From the human T2T-CHM13v2.0 reference genome, Homo sapiens, in the NCBI RefSeq assembly GCF_009914755.1, contig NC_060929.1: a stretch of DNA of 64,000 nucleotides; one strand, written 5' to 3'. The position numbers and the translations under genes are program-made. Position 1 is the stretch's first letter. Each line of letters begins with the position of its first letter. Of the stretch, positions 5,506-16,761 are shown in pieces. The notes beneath the pieces were generated by a model. The model was given only the letters and a program-made list of their open reading frames with translations, had not been told where the DNA came from and ran no database searches.

Positions 5506-5735
5506 TACAGAAAAATTAACTGACGTAGCTCGCTATCACATTGAAACATCTACAAAAATTCAGAATGAACTTTATTTAAGCCAAGAAGACTTCTTCATTA
5601 ATGGCAATATAAAAGTCTTCCCAGATCCTCCCCCATCAATACGTCCTCCACCTGTAGAAAAGGAAGAAGATGGTACCCTGACCATTGAACAGCTTGACAG
5701 TCTTCGAGATCAGTTCTTAGATATGGCACCTAAAG
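5506..5735 (+). CDS. SPEF2: SPEF2 coding exon (STEKLTDVARYHIE...DPPPSIRPPPVEKEEDGTLTIEQLDSLRDQFLDMAPKG)
   Basis: ttttaccactttcag acceptor, AAG|gtagga donor; 230 nt, phase 2/1, open frame. Confidence 0.92.
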
Positions 5736-8700
5736 GTAGGAAAAATAATTATCATGAAAAGAGCACAAAAAAAGGTTAAGATTAACCAGGACAGAAATCA
5801 CTTGCCAACAAGTAAAATCAGCTCTATGGGATCATGTGGCACTAAAACATGCCCTTGCTTTGTTCTAGTTTATTAAATATTTGTTTCATACAACATAGAC
5901 CCTAATTAAACAAGCAGGACCCACTGTGAATAATGCTTGAGCAGTGTGGTGGTCCTCATTCCTGGTAATTCCTCTCTCCTGTCCTCCCCGACCCTTGCTG
6001 ACAAGTTTGTATATTTGAGTATTACTCCACCTGGCAGCTTACAGAAAGACTTTGTGCATACTTCTAGTTTAGATTTTATATTGAGATTATGAGTTTGTGT
6101 TTCTGTGAGGGGAGACCAGGCAGTAGAAGATTTCCCTTTTATGTTGGCCTTTTCCCTCAGTGCTTGTAGACCATAAGCAGAATCAAATAAGCTGTTAGAA
6201 AATGTTTGCTTAATTAATTAGTTGGTTTGTTCATATGTATGTGTAAATGTTTTCTGCACACAACAATTTTATCTCTTTCACATTTTATCAGCATGGACCT
6301 ACAGCATCTGCACAGGCTTTTTTTATTCAGCCTTTTCCTACTTCCAGATATTCTTCAATGAGTTCTGTCGATTGATAGCACAAGTAATTCAGACAGATCA
6401 CATAGGATTATCATCTCCACTTTAAAGGTCTAGATACTGACTCACAGAGGAGTTTAGCAGATTTTTTGCCTATGGTCATATATCATTCAGAACTCTGCAG
6501 ATCCAAAGTTCTTGCCCCTTCTCACTGAACTAAGTTGCCTCTCATAAGCAGATTTCTTTTACTTTTCAACATATACTACTTATTGGGAAATTATTACTTT
6601 TCCCTGTAGCATAGTCAACTGACTTTAGTATTAATACAATGTTACTTTTTAAAAAAGTCCAGTATTTCCAGAAATTCACATCATATATCATTAGTAAAAA
6701 GAGCATTACTCTAAGTCCGAAAGCTTCCTTGCCAAGCCCAATAGGTGAAAGTGGTGTATGTGTGTGTGCCTGGGTGAACCTTGCGCTTTGATGTGTCAGC
6801 TCATCAAATCAGCTAGAGCAGGCTTTACAGCTCCAAGGTATAAAAGCCCACACTTCAGCTGTGGAGGGACGGAGGTGCCATTTGGCAGCATTTGGGCACG
6901 AAGGAAACATGGCCATCAGCAGGTACAAAAAATCTCGACTTTACAAATCAGTCCATGAAATTCCTTCAGTCCTTTAGTCAGACAGAGTGCACCCTCTTCT
7001 ACATGGTGCGAGCTCCACAATGCCCTGTTATTATGTACTTCCCTCTTCAGAGTTGCTTTTTCTCTTCATTTTATCCAGGCCATTATTTTACACATAAAAT
7101 AAAAAGATAAGTGTAAGTGGATTCTAAACATGACATGTGGTTTGCTTTAATCCTACACTCTGGTGACTGGGAGGAAATCACTCAATTAATAGGTAAAAAC
7201 TAAAGGCATCTGGGGACACTTGAATAGGTAGAAGTGGATTTTGAAAATTATCATCCACTTACAATATATCTTTCAGCAGGGACCCTAGTATCCATGATGC
7301 TAATCATAATACTTTCTTGGATCCAACCTCAAATCCAGAGCTCATATTTCCACTAAAAATTTAAAAATAAATTTTAAAAAATAGCAGCTATAACTTGACA
7401 TGTGTCTCAGAAGATTAACTCTAGAAACCCTTGGGACACAAAGATGTCAACAGATAAATGTTTTCAGACTATGGGAGAAATAAGAAGGGAGGGAGAGGAA
7501 GTAAAGGAAGGGAGGGAGGGAGAAACGGAGTTGTTTTTTTTTTAATTTTTATTTTTTTAAAAGCAGAGTAAAAGGAAACCATTTGCCCTAGGAGCTGAGA
7601 GTTTAATTTGAAAAGGCAAGCAAAGAGGAAGGAAATATGAACAACTATTTGAGTTCTTTCTGGGACACAGTATGAATGTTATTCAAGTGCTCAAGAATGC
7701 AAAGCATCAGTGTGCCCTGAAATTGGTCAGGGAAAAGTCTGTGGAGCAAAACTTTGGAGGGAGAAATTGAAGAGGGTAAAGAGATTTTGTGGCAAGGCTA
7801 CAGAGAATGTTTACAGTTAGGGGAACAGCTGCTGGAAACTCTGTAGACAAGAAGCGTGAGGATAGGAGCATGATGTTTGGGAAATGTTTAGGAGACTGCT
7901 CTGCTTTTCTTTCTCCAACTGCATGAACTCCAGGCGAGTAGAAGAGGAGGCTTTCTCTGTGTGAGGAACCACCTCCTCCCACCCAAGCTGGAGAATTAAC
8001 CCATATGCAAGAATAACAGTTGTAATTACCACAGAATTTACAAGGCTATACAATACGGTAGGATTTGGGGATTGTGATGATTCAAAGTGAGTTATGTATG
8101 GTCTATGGGCAAACAGTTTAAACTCTTTTCTCTATTAGCTCAATTATACCATTTGAAAAAATATATATTGCATATATTGCTTTTTAGGTATATCTAAAAT
8201 AATTAATAAGTGTTGGGAATTTGATTGACAGGAGTAACGTTCATTGTTATTATTCTTGCTATTCTTATAGAGGGCAGGGAAAAGTATTACTCCATTTTTC
8301 TGCATCCCAGAGTCACAGAATTGGAGGTTCTCTACTGATACTCTTGAAATCAGGCTCCAAACATTGACAATGGCCCTGCCTGAGGAAACCCATTAACTGC
8401 CACTCACCCCTTTTCCCCATCTCTTCTGGCCCCACAAAGTATACTCTGGCTTTTTTGTTTTTCTACCCCGGTTTGGCAATTGTTCACTTAAGAAACATGA
8501 CACACACCCATCCGTCTTTTAAATGAAGGCTTTTGTTGTATTTCTTCCAAGAAATGGAAAACAATCCTTTATGATACCTTCCACTGTATTTACCCTAGAA
8601 CTCTATAATTTCAAAACACAATCTTAGTGAGTGATAGCAGGTTTGAAAGTGTGGAGGAGCTGGCTGAACATGTGTGTTTCAAATGTGTGATCCTGCAGAA

Positions 8701-9679
8701 CTTCCTGCTCAAACTTGCTATTATTTCTATGCCAAGAAATAAAAACATTTTCCTATATTATTTCATATATGCCCATGCAATCCATAATATCTAAGATGCA
8801 ACTTTCAAGTTCACTAAAATATATTAAAACAGATGGATTTTTTTGGGAGGGAAGCATACATATTTATTTGCATATAACAGCCATTATGTTACTAGGCCCA
8901 TGGTAGGATTTTTTAGCAGATTTATAAAAAGCACTGATGTTACTAAATTACACTTTGCATGTTTTAATCATGCCACACAAATACAAGTATTGGATTATTA
9001 TTTAATCTTTGATTAGAACAATGACTGAATGCTTTAAATACTTGCAACTAGATAGTATCAAGATGTAAATGGAAAGAACTAAAGCTTAAGGGGTTTTCTG
9101 CTAAGTATTGGTTAATCCCTTTGAAAACAAAAGTCTCCATTAAAATAGCCCTTACTAAAGATAACATAAAATTGAAAAGCATCATATATTGTAACATATT
9201 CAACACTCCTTTTCTGGTCAAATTCTGCCACTTATGATGATTCTACCTCTCTTTTGGTAAAGGTAATGATTAGACATAAAATATTATTTATTGATTATTA
9301 TTAACACAAATATACCAGAAAAAATAATGACCTTATACATGATAATCAAATTAGATCATGCAAAATGCAATGAAACAGTTGATTACACTTGCATTTTTCC
9401 TGCCACTTAACAAAGATCCATACTTTAGAAGCATAAGAACAGTATGAGTAAAAGAAAGCAAACCATTCTTTCCATCACCTATCCTAGGAATCATTCCTAT
9501 GAGCGTACTACCGGCAGAGTTAGATCTAGTGAATATTTTCTGAATTATAACAATAGCCAATTTGGCATGGTCACTATGTGTCAGACCCTTTGCTAACATT
9601 TTCATATGTGAATTCACTTATTATCCACCTCAGTCTATGATGGGATGGCTAGAGTCAAACAGTTCTTTCTCAAGTTCAC

Positions 9680-9880
9680 CTCTTGTCAAAAGACTGTCAT
9701 ATGATCTTGGACAAGTTATTAAATTTCTCTCTGCCTCAGTTACCACATCTGTAAAATGAGAATAATAATGATACTTATTCCATGTATTGAAATAAGGTTG
9801 TTATGAAGATTAAAGTAATTAATATATGTAAAGTGCTTAGAAAGAGTATAGCACATAGAATGTGCAATTTAAGTGTAATC
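9680..9880 (+). mobile_element. MIR
   Basis: tgatcttggacaagttattaaatttctctctgcctcagtt..catctgtaaaatgagaataataat core. Confidence 0.8.
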
Positions 9881-10517
9881 ATATAAGCCATTGTGACTTG
9901 ATTATATAATTATAGTAATGTCATATTAGTATATAATATACAATATTGATACAAAGTATTCTATTATCCAAAATGTTAGCTTGGTTTCTTGAAGATGGAA
10001 ATACCCTAGTAGGCATTTGCAATATTACCCCTGAGTGCTTCCAAAAAAATGTACACCACCTGGTAGAATTAAATCATAAAGTAATGTGGTTTCCTAGGGA
10101 GTACAAGCATTCCAAACAAAAGCATTCATTTTGTGTGCTCCAGTAAGTTCTGGGTAGGTACATCTTGTCTCCAAACATCAAGTGCCAAATACATAAGGAA
10201 GACAGCCTTTTTCTGATGGAAGCAATTTGGATTCTGTTGAAACTAGAATACTTAGCAATGTTCCTCTGTCTGCACTTAAGCCATAAGAACTCTTTTTCCT
10301 TGTAAGCCCATCAGTACTCAATGAAATGCCTGCAGAGATTTGGTGCATAGCTATTTTCGCTTCTGCTGAGAACCTACCTGAAGAGAACATAGTTTAGCAA
10401 ATTCTACACCCTCTCTTTTTCTTCAAAAGATGCAGCATTTATTTATTCAAGGCCTGTAACATTGCTCTAAGAAGCTGACAAGGACCCCTTCTTTGAACCC
10501 CTTTTGGAGACCGATAG

Positions 10518-16096: not shown

Positions 16097-16191
16097 GTAA
16101 TCTATATGTGCTGACTTTGAACCTATTATTCTCCCATGGTCTGTGTGAGTTTCTTTTATATATGTGACTATTTTTGGCATCTTGATTATAG

Positions 16192-16315
16192 AATTTGGAG
16201 AAAAAGAGGTATCCATCCTGACTGCACATTATGAACCAGTATTAGAAGCTGCCAATGTGAAACTTAGTGAAGTGGATACTGAATGGAGCATGTTGAAATT
16301 AGAGATTTATGCCAG
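16192..16315 (+). CDS. hAT transposase-derived protein exon 4 (EFGEKEVSILTAHYEPVL...EWSMLKLEIYAR)
   Basis: cttgattatag acceptor, CAG|gtaagc donor; 124 nt phase 1/2; FG..E...L..HY and EW..LK motifs of ZNF862-like hATs; not in the ORF track. Confidence 0.85.
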
Positions 16316-16415
16316 GTAAGCAAGAAAGCAAGCTGAGGAAAGTGGTGGATATTTATAAATGTTTGGGTAAAACTTGGGAGTCTCAATCTTTTACATTTCT
16401 TCTCCTCCCTCCTAG

Positions 16416-16761
16416 ATTTCAGAACATTCGAAAATTGACCTGGGATTTTGTGAATTCCATTTACTTACACAAGTATCCAAATATCCTGACACTAGTCGAC
16501 CTAGTGTTGACCCTTCCTGCAAGTTCAGCTGAAGCAGAACATGGCTTTAGTCAGATGAAATGGACCAAGTCACATATGCATGCAAAAATCAAGGCTGAAA
16601 GTATGACGGATGTCCTAATTATTCAGTTGAATTCTCCAGACATTAATAATTTTGACCCTAGGAAAGCTATCCATTTATGGAATGCAAGAACACCGTCTTC
16701 AACTGGTGACACAAGATCTAATTCAGATTGCTCATCAAACTCAGAAAATGAAAGTGATTAG
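16416..16761 (+). CDS. hAT transposase-derived protein exon 5: hAT C-terminal dimerization domain with catalytic E, Ser/acidic tail, TAG stop
   Basis: ttctcctccctcctag acceptor, phase 2; YPNILTLVDLVLTLPASSAEAEHGFSQMK...LNSPDINNFDPRKAIHLW resembles the P-S-S-A-x-x-E-R-x-F-S hATC motif. Confidence 0.88.

What the first reader, a model, noticed from the sequence alone, without database searches (positions are those of the whole stretch)
5506..16761. In-frame exon trap: predicted SPEF2-hAT transposase fusion isoform
Seen: the SPEF2 exon ending at 5735 has a phase-1 donor (CCT AAA G|gt). At 14255-14256 there is an AG (gagttattttaaag|GC AGG AAT) that is also phase 1 in the transposase frame, so splicing 5735->14257 reads ...DMAPK-G-RNPSDGV... 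and adds 687 aa. The normal next exon (18731) also begins GC in phase 1, so the two acceptors would compete. Inference: the transposase is an alternative 3' terminal module that replaces the 340 C-terminal SPEF2 residues, including the EF-hand-like exon, with a DNA-binding/dimerizing transposase. This parallels the established CSB(ERCC6)-PGBD3 fusion, but here on an axonemal protein instead of a nuclear factor. With the 1822-aa canonical length I recall, the fusion would be ~2169 aa. The acceptor's pyrimidine tract is weak.
Basis: partly seen in the sequence, partly recalled or inferred. Interest (0 to 1): 0.88.

Follow-up and report, generated by a model that had tools for sequence, protein, structure and literature searches.

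The report
Ancient SPEF2–hAT transposase fusion isoform
A jumping-gene (hAT transposase) remnant inside an intron of the sperm-tail and cilia gene SPEF2 has stayed intact and spliceable onto SPEF2 in mammals, birds and reptiles, so the predicted fusion is an old conserved gene structure, though its use in humans is not yet shown.

Summary
SPEF2 exon 30 (5506-5735) ends in phase 1. The AG at 14255-56 opens an exon at 14257 in the frame of a hAT-derived ORF. With four further GT-AG introns, whose borders match RefSeq alternative exons, the join adds 687 aa and replaces the 340-aa SPEF2 tail.

The module carries a zf-C17orf113 zinc finger and a hAT dimerisation domain. It is single-copy in the human genome. 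It is as conserved as the neighbouring SPEF2 exons.

These are gene models from 33 eutherian species, and 22 of them end at the hAT stop, as predicted. Marsupial and sauropsid models join nine codons upstream.

Human RefSeq has no 14257 exon. Its isoforms X3, X5 and X7 instead splice exon 30 to 15337 and leave at 16600 for exon 31, giving an in-frame 274-aa cassette.

The human acceptor is weak, yet the human copy shows no decay.

Verdict: a real, amniote-wide host-transposase fusion. It exists in automatic annotations, and I found no paper describing it. Use of the exact junction in humans is untested.

The parts
5506..5735 (+). SPEF2 exon 30 of 37 (the window holds the last ten exons), with a phase-1 donor CTAAAG|gtaggaaa
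   Evidence: hub annotation table
14238..14240 (+). In-frame ATG six codons before the acceptor. It would start a stand-alone 693-aa protein. The stop upstream in this frame is at 14211-14213.
   Evidence: stand-alone models of grey seal (P0131) and the bat Glossophaga (P0128) begin with the same MWSYFKGR
14255..14256 (+). It is weak by sequence, and it is the position used in 35 eutherian gene models.
14257..15422 (+). hAT module exon 1. It holds the zf-C17orf113 zinc finger (about 14373-14558), the first Asp motif (FFSVISDG) and the second Asp motif (GFGSDG).
14492..14686 (+). RefSeq alternative exon. Joined to 5735, its acceptor is out of frame and a stop follows after 18 codons.
15276..15336 (+). 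Extra 5' part of the RefSeq alternative exon 15276-15422. Joined to 5735, this acceptor is out of frame.
15337..15422 (+). RefSeq alternative exon whose acceptor (aaatag|GAGACA) is in frame with exon 30. It is used in human isoforms X3, X5 and X7 and in Lemur catta X2, and reads ..DMAPK|G|DRKWLHGL..
15549..15766 (+). hAT module exon 2
   Evidence: models of platypus, rat and a bat end exactly at this exon's end
15888..16096 (+). hAT module exon 3
16192..16315 (+). hAT module exon 4
16416..16761 (+). hAT module exon 5. It holds the hAT dimerisation domain with the PASSAEAEHGFS motif, an internal phase-1 donor at 16600|16601 (CTGAAA|gtatgacg) that rejoins exon 31 in frame, and the stop TAG at 16759-16761.
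16821..16836 (+). Two AATAAA polyadenylation-type hexamers 60-75 nt after the module's stop
18731..18837 (+). Canonical SPEF2 exon 31. Its acceptor is also phase 1 and begins GC, so it competes with 14257. It begins the 340-aa tail that contains the SPEF2_C domain.

Best explanation
SPEF2 intron 30 holds a domesticated hAT transposase gene, five exons and 693 codons in the sense orientation. It has been part of the SPEF2 transcription unit since at least the common ancestor of amniotes. It is expressed mainly by alternative splicing: the phase-1 donor of exon 30 joins a phase-compatible acceptor at the N-terminus of the module. In eutherians that acceptor is the AG at human 14255-56. In marsupials, birds and reptiles it lies nine codons upstream. 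The transcript then takes one of two routes. Or it can leave through a phase-1 donor inside the last hAT exon and rejoin exon 31, giving a cassette form.

Shown here: the sequence features, the open frames of all four in-frame combinations, the domain content, the single-copy status, vertical inheritance, conservation equal to that of the host exons, and the junction pattern in the gene models of other species.

Inferred: the module acts without catalysis, as a zinc-finger or oligomerisation domain. The putative catalytic residues vary between species while the zinc-finger Cys and His residues are nearly invariant. Also inferred: humans still translate the N-terminal two thirds of the module, through 14257 or from ATG 14238. 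The confidence given (0.8) is for the conserved fusion gene structure. My estimate that the 5735->14257 junction is detectable in some human tissue is about 0.6.
For: Splice and frame anatomy.

Domains: zf-C17orf113 1.5e-11 and Dimer_Tnp_hAT 8.2e-5 in the human exons. A profile of the family hits Hermes transposase over the PASSAxxER.FS region, E 1.9e-5 to 4.7e-5.

Cross-species models: 26 hits and 104, 107 distinct proteins in all. All but one unnamed protein and the snake P0020 ('zinc finger protein 862-like') contain the end of SPEF2 exon 30 or bear a SPEF2 name. Of the 35, 22 end in the hAT tail, 10 are cassettes and 3 are truncated.

Several pipelines agree: NCBI isoform X models, UniProt entries titled 'Sperm flagellar 2', and submitter annotations.

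Conservation against human: hAT N region 76-88% and C region 70-85% in eutherians, compared with 76-88% for host exons 28-30. In birds, crocodilians and turtles the hAT figure is 59-66%, compared with 52-57% for host exons 28-30 and 46% for the host tail (tinamou).

The quick ML tree follows the species tree, and the human branch (0.082) is below the median (0.11).

No start codon is shared across amniotes. Bird, marsupial and crocodilian sequences have no Met between the junction and the conserved WLxKYPW motif. The Mets of stand-alone models differ in place and sequence.

Human lineage: private changes at conserved eutherian sites are 6 of 218 in the N region and 8 of 166 in the C region, inside the range of 16 other species, 0.9-9.6%. 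Against gorilla, only 3 of the 16 module differences are human-derived, polarised by eye on the alignment. The neutral expectation is 9-13.5 under assumed branch lengths, P 0.02-0.0007.

The module is single-copy in the human assembly; the next matches have 23-37% identity.
Against: None of the 21 human RefSeq transcripts has an exon starting at 14257 (hub table), while three other acceptors inside exon 1 are annotated (14492, 15276, 15337).

The human acceptor has the poorest pyrimidine tract of the 19 acceptors compared and a second AG 11 nt upstream of its own AG.

The models from other species are computational. Pipelines borrow protein evidence from one another, so the 35 models are not 35 independent observations of RNA. 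What they do show independently is that each genome has an AG in the right phase and an open frame.

The same module is also annotated as a separate gene ('zinc finger protein 862-like', 'KIAA1586-like') in lizards, a turtle, birds, dog, tree shrew, kangaroo rat, platypus, seal and a bat.

The gorilla model has 13 derived changes, including a zinc-finger Cys to Phe, plus two gaps. This may be decay or assembly error.

Passerine models stop after about 140 aa of the module, so the module can be lost.

Selection was measured on proteins only. No orthologous DNA was available for dN/dS. The neutral divergence values used are recalled, not measured.
Confidence: 0.8

Rival explanations
1. The module is an independent nested gene with its own promoter, translated in eutherians from the ATG at 14238. 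On this view the SPEF2-hAT models are artefacts of annotation pipelines that chain same-strand ORFs using intronic pre-mRNA reads.
For: Stand-alone models exist in at least 17 named species. Seal and bat models start with MWSYFKGR, identical to the human ATG context. RefSeq lists an enhancer element at 15015-16214 (hub table).
Against: There is no conserved start codon across amniotes. Most stand-alone models start at an internal Met (MFC/MYC) that would cut off the conserved WLxKYPW motif, or at non-homologous upstream Mets. Several stand-alone models stop at exon ends or run into introns (P0128, P0124, P0127, P0125, P0131), as partial transcripts would. Phase compatibility with exon 30 is kept through a 27-nt shift of the acceptor between marsupials/sauropsids and eutherians. 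There is no CpG island before 14238: observed/expected CpG is 0.19-0.37. Human RefSeq lists no separate gene here (hub table).
Confidence: 0.12
2. In anthropoid primates the full fusion has been given up. Only the C-terminal part of the module is still used, as the 15337-16600 cassette of isoforms X3, X5 and X7, and the region 14257-15336 is a relic that has not yet decayed.
For: Human models use only 15337. The cluster of human X5 stands for 33 member sequences. Lemur catta X2 also uses the 15337-type acceptor. The human 14257 acceptor is weak. The gorilla N region has 10 derived changes and 2 gaps, against 3 changes in its C region and tail.
Against: The human N region is intact over 360 codons. 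It shows 1 human-derived change since the gorilla split, against 4.7-7.1 expected if neutral. It shows 6 of 218 private changes at conserved sites, no more than in species whose models include it. The 53-aa hAT tail after 16600, unused by the cassette, is also intact in human and 83-91% identical to four of the five terminal-form eutherian models compared (mouse 57%). Microcebus, a primate, has the full junction.
Confidence: 0.22
3. Splicing into the module is non-functional noise: cryptic exonisation of an old transposon, with products removed by nonsense-mediated decay.
For: Two of the four acceptors in exon 1 (14492 and 15276) are out of frame and meet stops quickly.
Against: A 687-codon frame kept open across five exons in eutherians, marsupials, platypus (partial), birds, crocodilians, turtles and squamates, at host-exon levels of identity, cannot be neutral.
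Confidence: 0.03

Closest known systems
CSB-PGBD3 (ERCC6-PGBD3) fusion
   Same: A transposase sits in an intron of a host gene in the sense orientation. An acceptor in front of the transposase ORF is in phase with the upstream host donor, and the transposase has its own stop and poly(A) site. Full-length host protein and host-N-terminus-transposase fusion are therefore made from one gene by alternative splicing. (Abstract of PMC3459987 as listed; passage in the Cosby preprint.)
   Different: The superfamily is piggyBac, not hAT. CSB-PGBD3 is more than 43 My old and confined to higher primates, whereas this fusion is at least amniote-wide. The transposase here is split by four introns. It can also be an internal in-frame cassette. 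The host is an axonemal protein, not a chromatin remodeller. Expression of the human fusion is established for CSB-PGBD3 and is untested here.
Host-transposase fusion (HTF) genes of tetrapods (Cosby et al., bioRxiv 10.1101/2020.05.07.082677; e.g. KRABINER, SETMAR)
   Same: It fits their three-step birth model: insertion into a host gene, capture by alternative splicing, then selection. hAT is among the predominant contributing superfamilies, at 23.4% of events (passages read).
   Different: They report that older HTFs generally keep only the fusion transcript. Here the parental SPEF2 isoform and the fusion coexist in a very old fusion. The host part is not a transcriptional regulatory domain. 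SPEF2 does not occur in the preprint's main text. Its Table S3 could not be opened, so SPEF2 may be listed there.
hAT-derived vertebrate genes with the zf-C17orf113 finger (database names 'ZNF862-like', 'KIAA1586-like'; a PRDM11 cluster)
   Same: They share the zf-C17orf113 finger, an RNase-H-like core and a hAT dimerisation domain. Orthologues of the module are automatically named after them.
   Different: They are only 23-37% identical to the human paralogous loci. The SPEF2 module is a separate orthologue group: in the exhaustive search, two full-length representative clusters reach 50% identity or more, and the next full-length relative has 37%.
Hermes transposase (active hAT element; PDB 6dww, 2bw3, 4d1q, 8edg)
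   Same: The C-terminal region aligns, including LxxPASSAxxERxFS.
   Different: Only this region matches by sequence. A single-sequence search found nothing. The residue aligned with the Glu of that motif is Gly in bat and cattle and Ala in python, and the second Asp motif is changed in horse and wallaby. That the Hermes Glu is catalytic is recalled, not tested.

Membership tests
Host-transposase fusion gene formed by alternative splicing | [quoted passage not shown] | tested here: met
   all four in-frame combinations are open in the human sequence. Human X3, X5 and X7 contain one of them letter for letter.
Host-transposase fusion gene formed by alternative splicing | RNA evidence for every intron of the fusion transcript | not testable with these tools
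   No transcript or junction data were available. Only gene models were seen.
Host-transposase fusion gene formed by alternative splicing | Purifying selection on the transposase part | tested here: met
   Tested at protein level only. Identity equals or exceeds that of the host exons. The tree is vertical. Human-lineage changes fall below the neutral expectation. Codon-level dN/dS was not possible.
Host-transposase fusion gene formed by alternative splicing | Coexistence with the parental transcript | tested here: met
   The hub table shows NM_024867.4 skipping the module. The frames of both routes were checked.
hAT transposase superfamily | C-terminal hAT dimerisation domain | tested here: met
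   PF05699 scores 22.8 bits in human exon 5 (cut-off 21.4), 29.4 in swan and 29.9 in dog. The family profile hits Hermes.
hAT transposase superfamily | N-terminal zinc finger | tested here: met
   PF25431 zf-C17orf113 scores 44.4 bits (cut-off 29.5). C47, C50, H79 and H85 are at least 90% conserved in alignment A1.
hAT transposase superfamily | RNase-H-like core with a DDE triad | tested here: inconclusive
   DUF4371 scores below its cut-off (22.7 against 32.1). The database's precomputed PF14291 and PF27073 labels are present on bird and reptile orthologues. The motif residues are not invariant.
hAT transposase superfamily | Terminal inverted repeats and an 8-bp target duplication | tested here: inconclusive
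   One search found 24 short AT-rich inverted pairs in 13100-18700, with none convincing and no control. Loss is expected in an element this old.
CSB-PGBD3-type alternative 3' terminal transposase module | Own stop codon and poly(A) signal downstream of a phase-matched acceptor | tested here: met
   TAG at 16759-61 and AATAAA at 16821 and 16831. Phase match shown.
CSB-PGBD3-type alternative 3' terminal transposase module | The fusion protein is expressed in human cells | not testable with these tools
   No expression data. Human RefSeq lacks the 14257 exon (hub table).

The most novel reading that the evidence does not exclude
SPEF2 is a locus with two outputs that is more than 300 million years old. 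Besides the axonemal central-apparatus protein, it makes a conserved isoform in which the microtubule- and nucleotide-binding N-terminal 1,480 residues are joined to a zinc-finger/hAT module that has lost the need for catalysis. This would give a cilia and sperm-tail protein a second role, in nucleic-acid binding or self-assembly, for example in the spermatid nucleus or manchette. It would be among the oldest host-transposase fusions still alternating with its parental isoform, and the first on an axonemal protein. SPEF2 mutations and the pig intron-30 L1 insertion may act partly through it.
Probability: 0.2. Interest if true: 0.8.

Novelty: new member of a known kind. Interest (0 to 1): 0.6.

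Why it matters
SPEF2 is a disease gene for sperm-flagellum defects and primary ciliary dyskinesia-like phenotypes. All published models discuss the canonical and short N-terminal isoforms (PMC5770417, passages read). A conserved isoform that swaps or interrupts the SPEF2_C domain with a 690-aa zinc-finger/hAT module would change three things: how C-terminal and intron-30 variants are interpreted, which antibodies and knock-outs hit which products, and what SPEF2 can do.

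For transposon biology it adds an amniote-wide hAT capture. The host is not a transcription factor, and the parental and fusion transcripts still coexist. That runs against the trend reported for old host-transposase fusions (Cosby preprint).

It also shows a 27-nt in-frame migration of the capturing acceptor between marsupials/sauropsids and eutherians.

Tried and rejected
- My first Pfam call had a frame slip in one exon reference. I corrected it.
- The Science version of Cosby et al. was not held under the PMC id I recalled. The preprint's Table S3 is an attached file that I could not open, so whether SPEF2 is already in their list of 94 events remains open.
- Literature searches that found no description of the fusion:
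  - SPEF2 + transposase: 14 papers, 13 listed, none on this by title or abstract start.
  - C17orf113: 1 unrelated paper.
  - A six-term search that turned out too loose.
  - SPEF2 + intron 30: 3 papers, about the pig L1 insertion.
  - SPEF2 + isoforms + zinc finger + dimerization: 1 unrelated paper.
  - SPEF2 + hAT as whole words: 6 unrelated papers.
  - KPL2 + transpos*: 16 papers, about the pig L1 or bacteria.
  - A five-term search: 87 papers, and the 15 listed all lack 'sperm flagellar'.
  - SPEF2 + ZNF862: 1 unrelated paper.
- These searches cover open-access full texts only, not supplements.
- A single-sequence PDB search found nothing useful. The profile search did.
- The TIR search was inconclusive.
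- A script failed on a motif and was fixed. The gorilla row was left out of the alignment because the motif did not match, and was compared separately.
- The careful ML search did not finish, so the tree cited is the quick one. Its grouping of four cassette-form rows is an artefact of my fixed-length slicing, because those rows end in SPEF2 exon-31 sequence.
- My first regex for 3' forms misclassified some cassettes. I replaced it with an alignment-based count.

Full report
OBSERVATION

The window is T2T-CHM13 chr5:36,022,001-36,086,000 (hub table; confirmed). SPEF2 exon 5506-5735 is exon 30 of 37, since the window holds the last ten exons. It ends CCT AAA G|gtaggaaa. In the canonical frame this is a phase-1 donor.

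At 14255-14256 there is an AG, in the context gagttattttaaag|GCAGGAAT. An exon starting at 14257 completes the split codon as GGC (Gly) and continues RNPSDGV. This is the frame of an ORF that is open from 14214. Exon 31 (18731) starts tattatag|GCATAA in the same phase.

The canonical tail after 5735 is 340 aa. It contains the Pfam SPEF2_C domain.

Exons 14257-15422, 15549-15766, 15888-16096, 16192-16315 and 16416-16761 are all bounded by GT-AG, and all their borders are also RefSeq alternative-exon borders. Joined, they read 687 codons and then TAG. An in-frame ATG at 14238 would give a stand-alone protein of 693 aa.

WHAT THE MODULE IS

Human exon 1 carries a zf-C17orf113 zinc finger (E 1.5e-11, above the Pfam cut-off). 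Exon 5 carries the hAT C-terminal dimerisation domain (E 8.2e-5, above the cut-off).

I aligned 21 stand-alone relatives into a family profile. That profile matches Hermes transposase in the PDB over LxxPASSAxxERxFS, with E 1.9e-5 to 4.7e-5.

The nearest non-orthologous relatives are proteins of roughly 710-760 aa, automatically named 'ZNF862-like' or DUF4371 / FAM200-ZBED5 RNase-like / Dimer_Tnp_hAT, from molluscs, cnidarians and chordates.

In the human assembly the module is single-copy. The only other matches are five loci at 23-37% identity.

In an exhaustive search of 1.84 billion representatives, two full-length clusters reach 50% identity or more, and the next full-length relative has 37% (a 352-aa fragment scores 53%). 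There are 5,696 relatives at E <= 0.001. The module is therefore an isolated orthologue group inside a large hAT clade.

THE FUSION IN OTHER SPECIES

I searched the protein database in two ways: with human exon 1 against longer proteins (26 hits), and with the hAT part of a goose protein (104 hits). Together these gave 107 proteins. Nearly all are named sperm flagellar protein 2.

I classified the residues that follow the end of exon 30 (..APK) in all 107:
- 54 have A-(I/K).., which starts nine codons further upstream.
- 5 have G-(G/D)-R-(R/K)-W.
- 11 have other starts.
- 2 have no recognisable exon-30 end.

By the names, the 35 are all eutherian. They cover 33 species, from armadillo and elephant to mouse, cattle, horse, bat, mouse lemur and gorilla. 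The gorilla model reads APN-GRNPSDG and skips seven residues. The 54 are marsupials, birds, crocodilians, turtles and squamates.

At the homologous upstream position human DNA has 'tt' rather than 'ag' (my reading). The capturing acceptor therefore moved 27 nt downstream, in frame, on the eutherian stem.

Of the 35 eutherian models:
- 22 run to the module's own C-terminus without SPEF2_C.
- 7 leave through a donor equivalent to human 16600.
- 3 leave through a later donor, continuing into SPEF2_C (cassette forms).
- 3 are truncated.

HUMAN ANNOTATION

No human RefSeq exon starts at 14257 (hub table). Human isoforms X3, X5 and X7 (P0095, P0094, P0092/93) contain, letter for letter, this path: exon 30 -> 15337-15422 -> 15549-15766 -> 15888-16096 -> 16192-16315 -> 16416-16600 -> exons 31-36 -> 34042-34638.

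The acceptor at 15337 and the donor at 16600 are both in phase, so a 274-aa piece of the module is inserted in frame. It lacks the zinc finger, both Asp motifs and the last 53 residues. Lemur catta X2 uses the same type of acceptor but ends at the hAT stop.

The annotated acceptors at 14492 and 15276 are out of frame.

All four in-frame combinations are open in the human sequence:
- full terminal
- full cassette
- short cassette
- short terminal

The module's stop is followed by AATAAA at 16821 and 16831.

IS IT UNDER SELECTION, AND IS THE HUMAN COPY ALIVE?

Identity to human for eutherians is 76-88% in the N region (residues 1-360, upstream of the 15337 acceptor) and 70-85% in the C region. 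The same proteins show 76-88% for SPEF2 exons 28-30 and 68-85% for exons 31-37.

For birds, alligator and turtle the module is 59-66% identical. Host exons 28-30 are 52-57% identical, and the host tail is 46% in the one sauropsid model that has it.

A quick ML tree with three outgroup proteins recovers sauropsids, then platypus, marsupials and eutherians. This indicates a single vertical origin. The human terminal branch (0.082) is below the median (0.11). The careful search did not finish. One group of four rows is an artefact of my slicing of cassette forms.

At sites where the other 16 eutherians agree (at most one dissenter), human has 6 of 218 private changes in the N region and 8 of 166 in the C region. 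This is within the spread of the other species, 0.9-9.6%.

Against the gorilla model the module shows 16 mismatches and two gaps. I polarised these by eye on the alignment. Three are human-derived and 13 are gorilla-derived, including a zinc-finger Cys to Phe.

I assumed human-branch neutral divergences of 0.6-0.9%; these are recalled values. Under them, 9-13.5 amino-acid changes would be expected in 687 codons, and P(<=3) is 0.02-0.0007. For the N region alone, 1 change was observed against 4.7-7.1 expected, with P 0.05-0.007.

The human N region does not look abandoned, although no human RefSeq coding model includes it.

CATALYSIS

The first Asp motif (FFSVISDG) is kept in every row of the alignment. 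The second (GFGSDG) is GSGG in horse and GSNG in wallaby. The Glu of AEAERGF is Gly in bat and cattle and Ala in python; human has AEAEHGF. That these are the hAT catalytic positions is recalled from the family's motifs. Only the Glu is backed by the Hermes alignment.

The zinc-finger Cys and His residues are at least 90% conserved. I infer a non-catalytic role for the module.

FUSION OR NESTED GENE?

The same module is also annotated alone as 'ZNF862-like' or 'KIAA1586-like' in many species. Most of those models begin at an internal Met that would remove the conserved WLxKYPW motif. Others begin at non-homologous Mets just upstream of the acceptor. Several stop at exon ends or run into introns.

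Birds, marsupials and alligator have no Met between the junction and the conserved motif. The only recurring start is MWSYFKGR in human, seal and a bat.

These 24 nt are also the branch-point, pyrimidine-tract and AG region of the eutherian acceptor. That may explain why they are identical while the next dozen residues vary.

There is no CpG island in front of 14238.

I conclude that capture by SPEF2 splicing is the ancestral and main mode of expression. A minor stand-alone product in eutherians is not excluded.

HUMAN USAGE

By sequence, the 14257 acceptor is the weakest of the 19 I compared: 8 of 16 pyrimidines, longest run 4, A at -3, and a GAG-type AG 11 nt upstream that would be out of frame. 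The annotated 14492 acceptor scores no better on pyrimidine count, and it is annotated all the same.

I put the chance that 5735->14257 is used detectably in some human tissue at about 0.6. The main rival, at about 0.2, is that anthropoids have shifted to the 15337 cassette.

LITERATURE

In ten searches of open-access full texts I found no paper that mentions a SPEF2 or KPL2 fusion with a hAT or other DNA transposase (passages read).

The main text of the Cosby et al. preprint has no SPEF2. Its method was to take RefSeq tetrapod models that have a transposase Pfam domain and RNA-seq support for all introns. That method could have picked this gene up. Table S3 was not readable, so this stays open.

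The pig immotile short-tail sperm defect is an L1 insertion in intron 30 of SPEF2 (PMC5770417, passage). Intron 30 is also the number of the intron that hosts the module in human.

VERDICT

The sequence observation is correct. The inferred fusion architecture is a real and deeply conserved feature of the gene, at least amniote-wide. It is present in automatic annotations, including partial forms in human RefSeq, and apparently not discussed in print.

The specific human junction is plausible but unproven. I classify it as a new member of a known kind, namely host-transposase fusion by alternative splicing of the CSB-PGBD3 type.

Noticed in passing
window 16600/16601 and 18731: The donor inside the last hAT exon (CTGAAA|gtatgacg) is phase 1, like exon 30's donor. 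The whole module (634 codons) or its 15337-16600 part (274 codons) can therefore sit as an in-frame cassette between exons 30 and 31. Both readings give Ser at the split codon (AGT or A|GC).
   Followed up: yes
proteins P0096-P0106 (passerine SPEF2 models): In the songbird models only about 16-23% of the module is covered. Several end ..YHAIAKSGSPYTDPDGMCKPDKL, which suggests the module was truncated or lost in passerines although splicing into it persists.
   Followed up: partly
proteins P0017, P0022, P0042, P0050 and P0048, P0115, P0100: Birds show two recurring alternative ends. One is ..AETERG followed by QSNE.HHDA..L (swift, chicken, emu, ptarmigan). This cuts the hAT dimerisation motif. 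The other is a terminal ..FYTKESIY (guineafowl, buzzard, munia).
   Followed up: no
protein P0069 (gorilla): The gorilla model differs from human by 13 gorilla-derived residues in the module, including Cys to Phe in the zinc finger, plus two gaps of 7 and 5 residues. One gap is flanked by frameshift-like residues. This is either decay in gorilla or assembly and annotation error.
   Followed up: partly
SPEF2 intron 30 (window 5736-18730): The pig immotile short-tail sperm defect is an L1 insertion in intron 30 of SPEF2/KPL2 (PMC5770417, passage). In human, intron 30 is the intron that hosts the hAT module. Whether the pig insertion disturbs the fusion isoform as well has apparently not been asked.
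   Followed up: no
G000 C11:45,383,628-45,384,707; C7:151,042,709-151,043,791; C6:56,892,108-56,892,989; C17:42,899,632-42,899,847; C6:28,444,166-28,444,612: These are the only other human matches to exon 1 of the module, at 23-37% identity, mostly in long open frames (270-799 aa). From their positions I would guess PRDM11, ZNF862, KIAA1586, C17orf113 and ZBED9/SCAND3. Those names are recalled and not checked. The atlas lists a PRDM11 cluster carrying zf-C17orf113 with a hAT-like fold, which may be another host-transposase fusion.
   Followed up: no
window 14229-14256: Human ITMWSYFKG aligns with marsupial KTPWKYFKKG and bird IRALKQFKG, which are exonic in those groups. In eutherians the same 27 nt serve as the intron end. 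The acceptor AG is made from the old Lys-Gly codons.
   Followed up: partly
window 16416-17966: RefSeq lists a long version of the last hAT exon that ends TAGAAG|gtacctct, with no poly(A) hexamer nearby (the nearest are at 17291 and 18630). It may be an internal exon of a non-coding or decay-targeted transcript.
   Followed up: no
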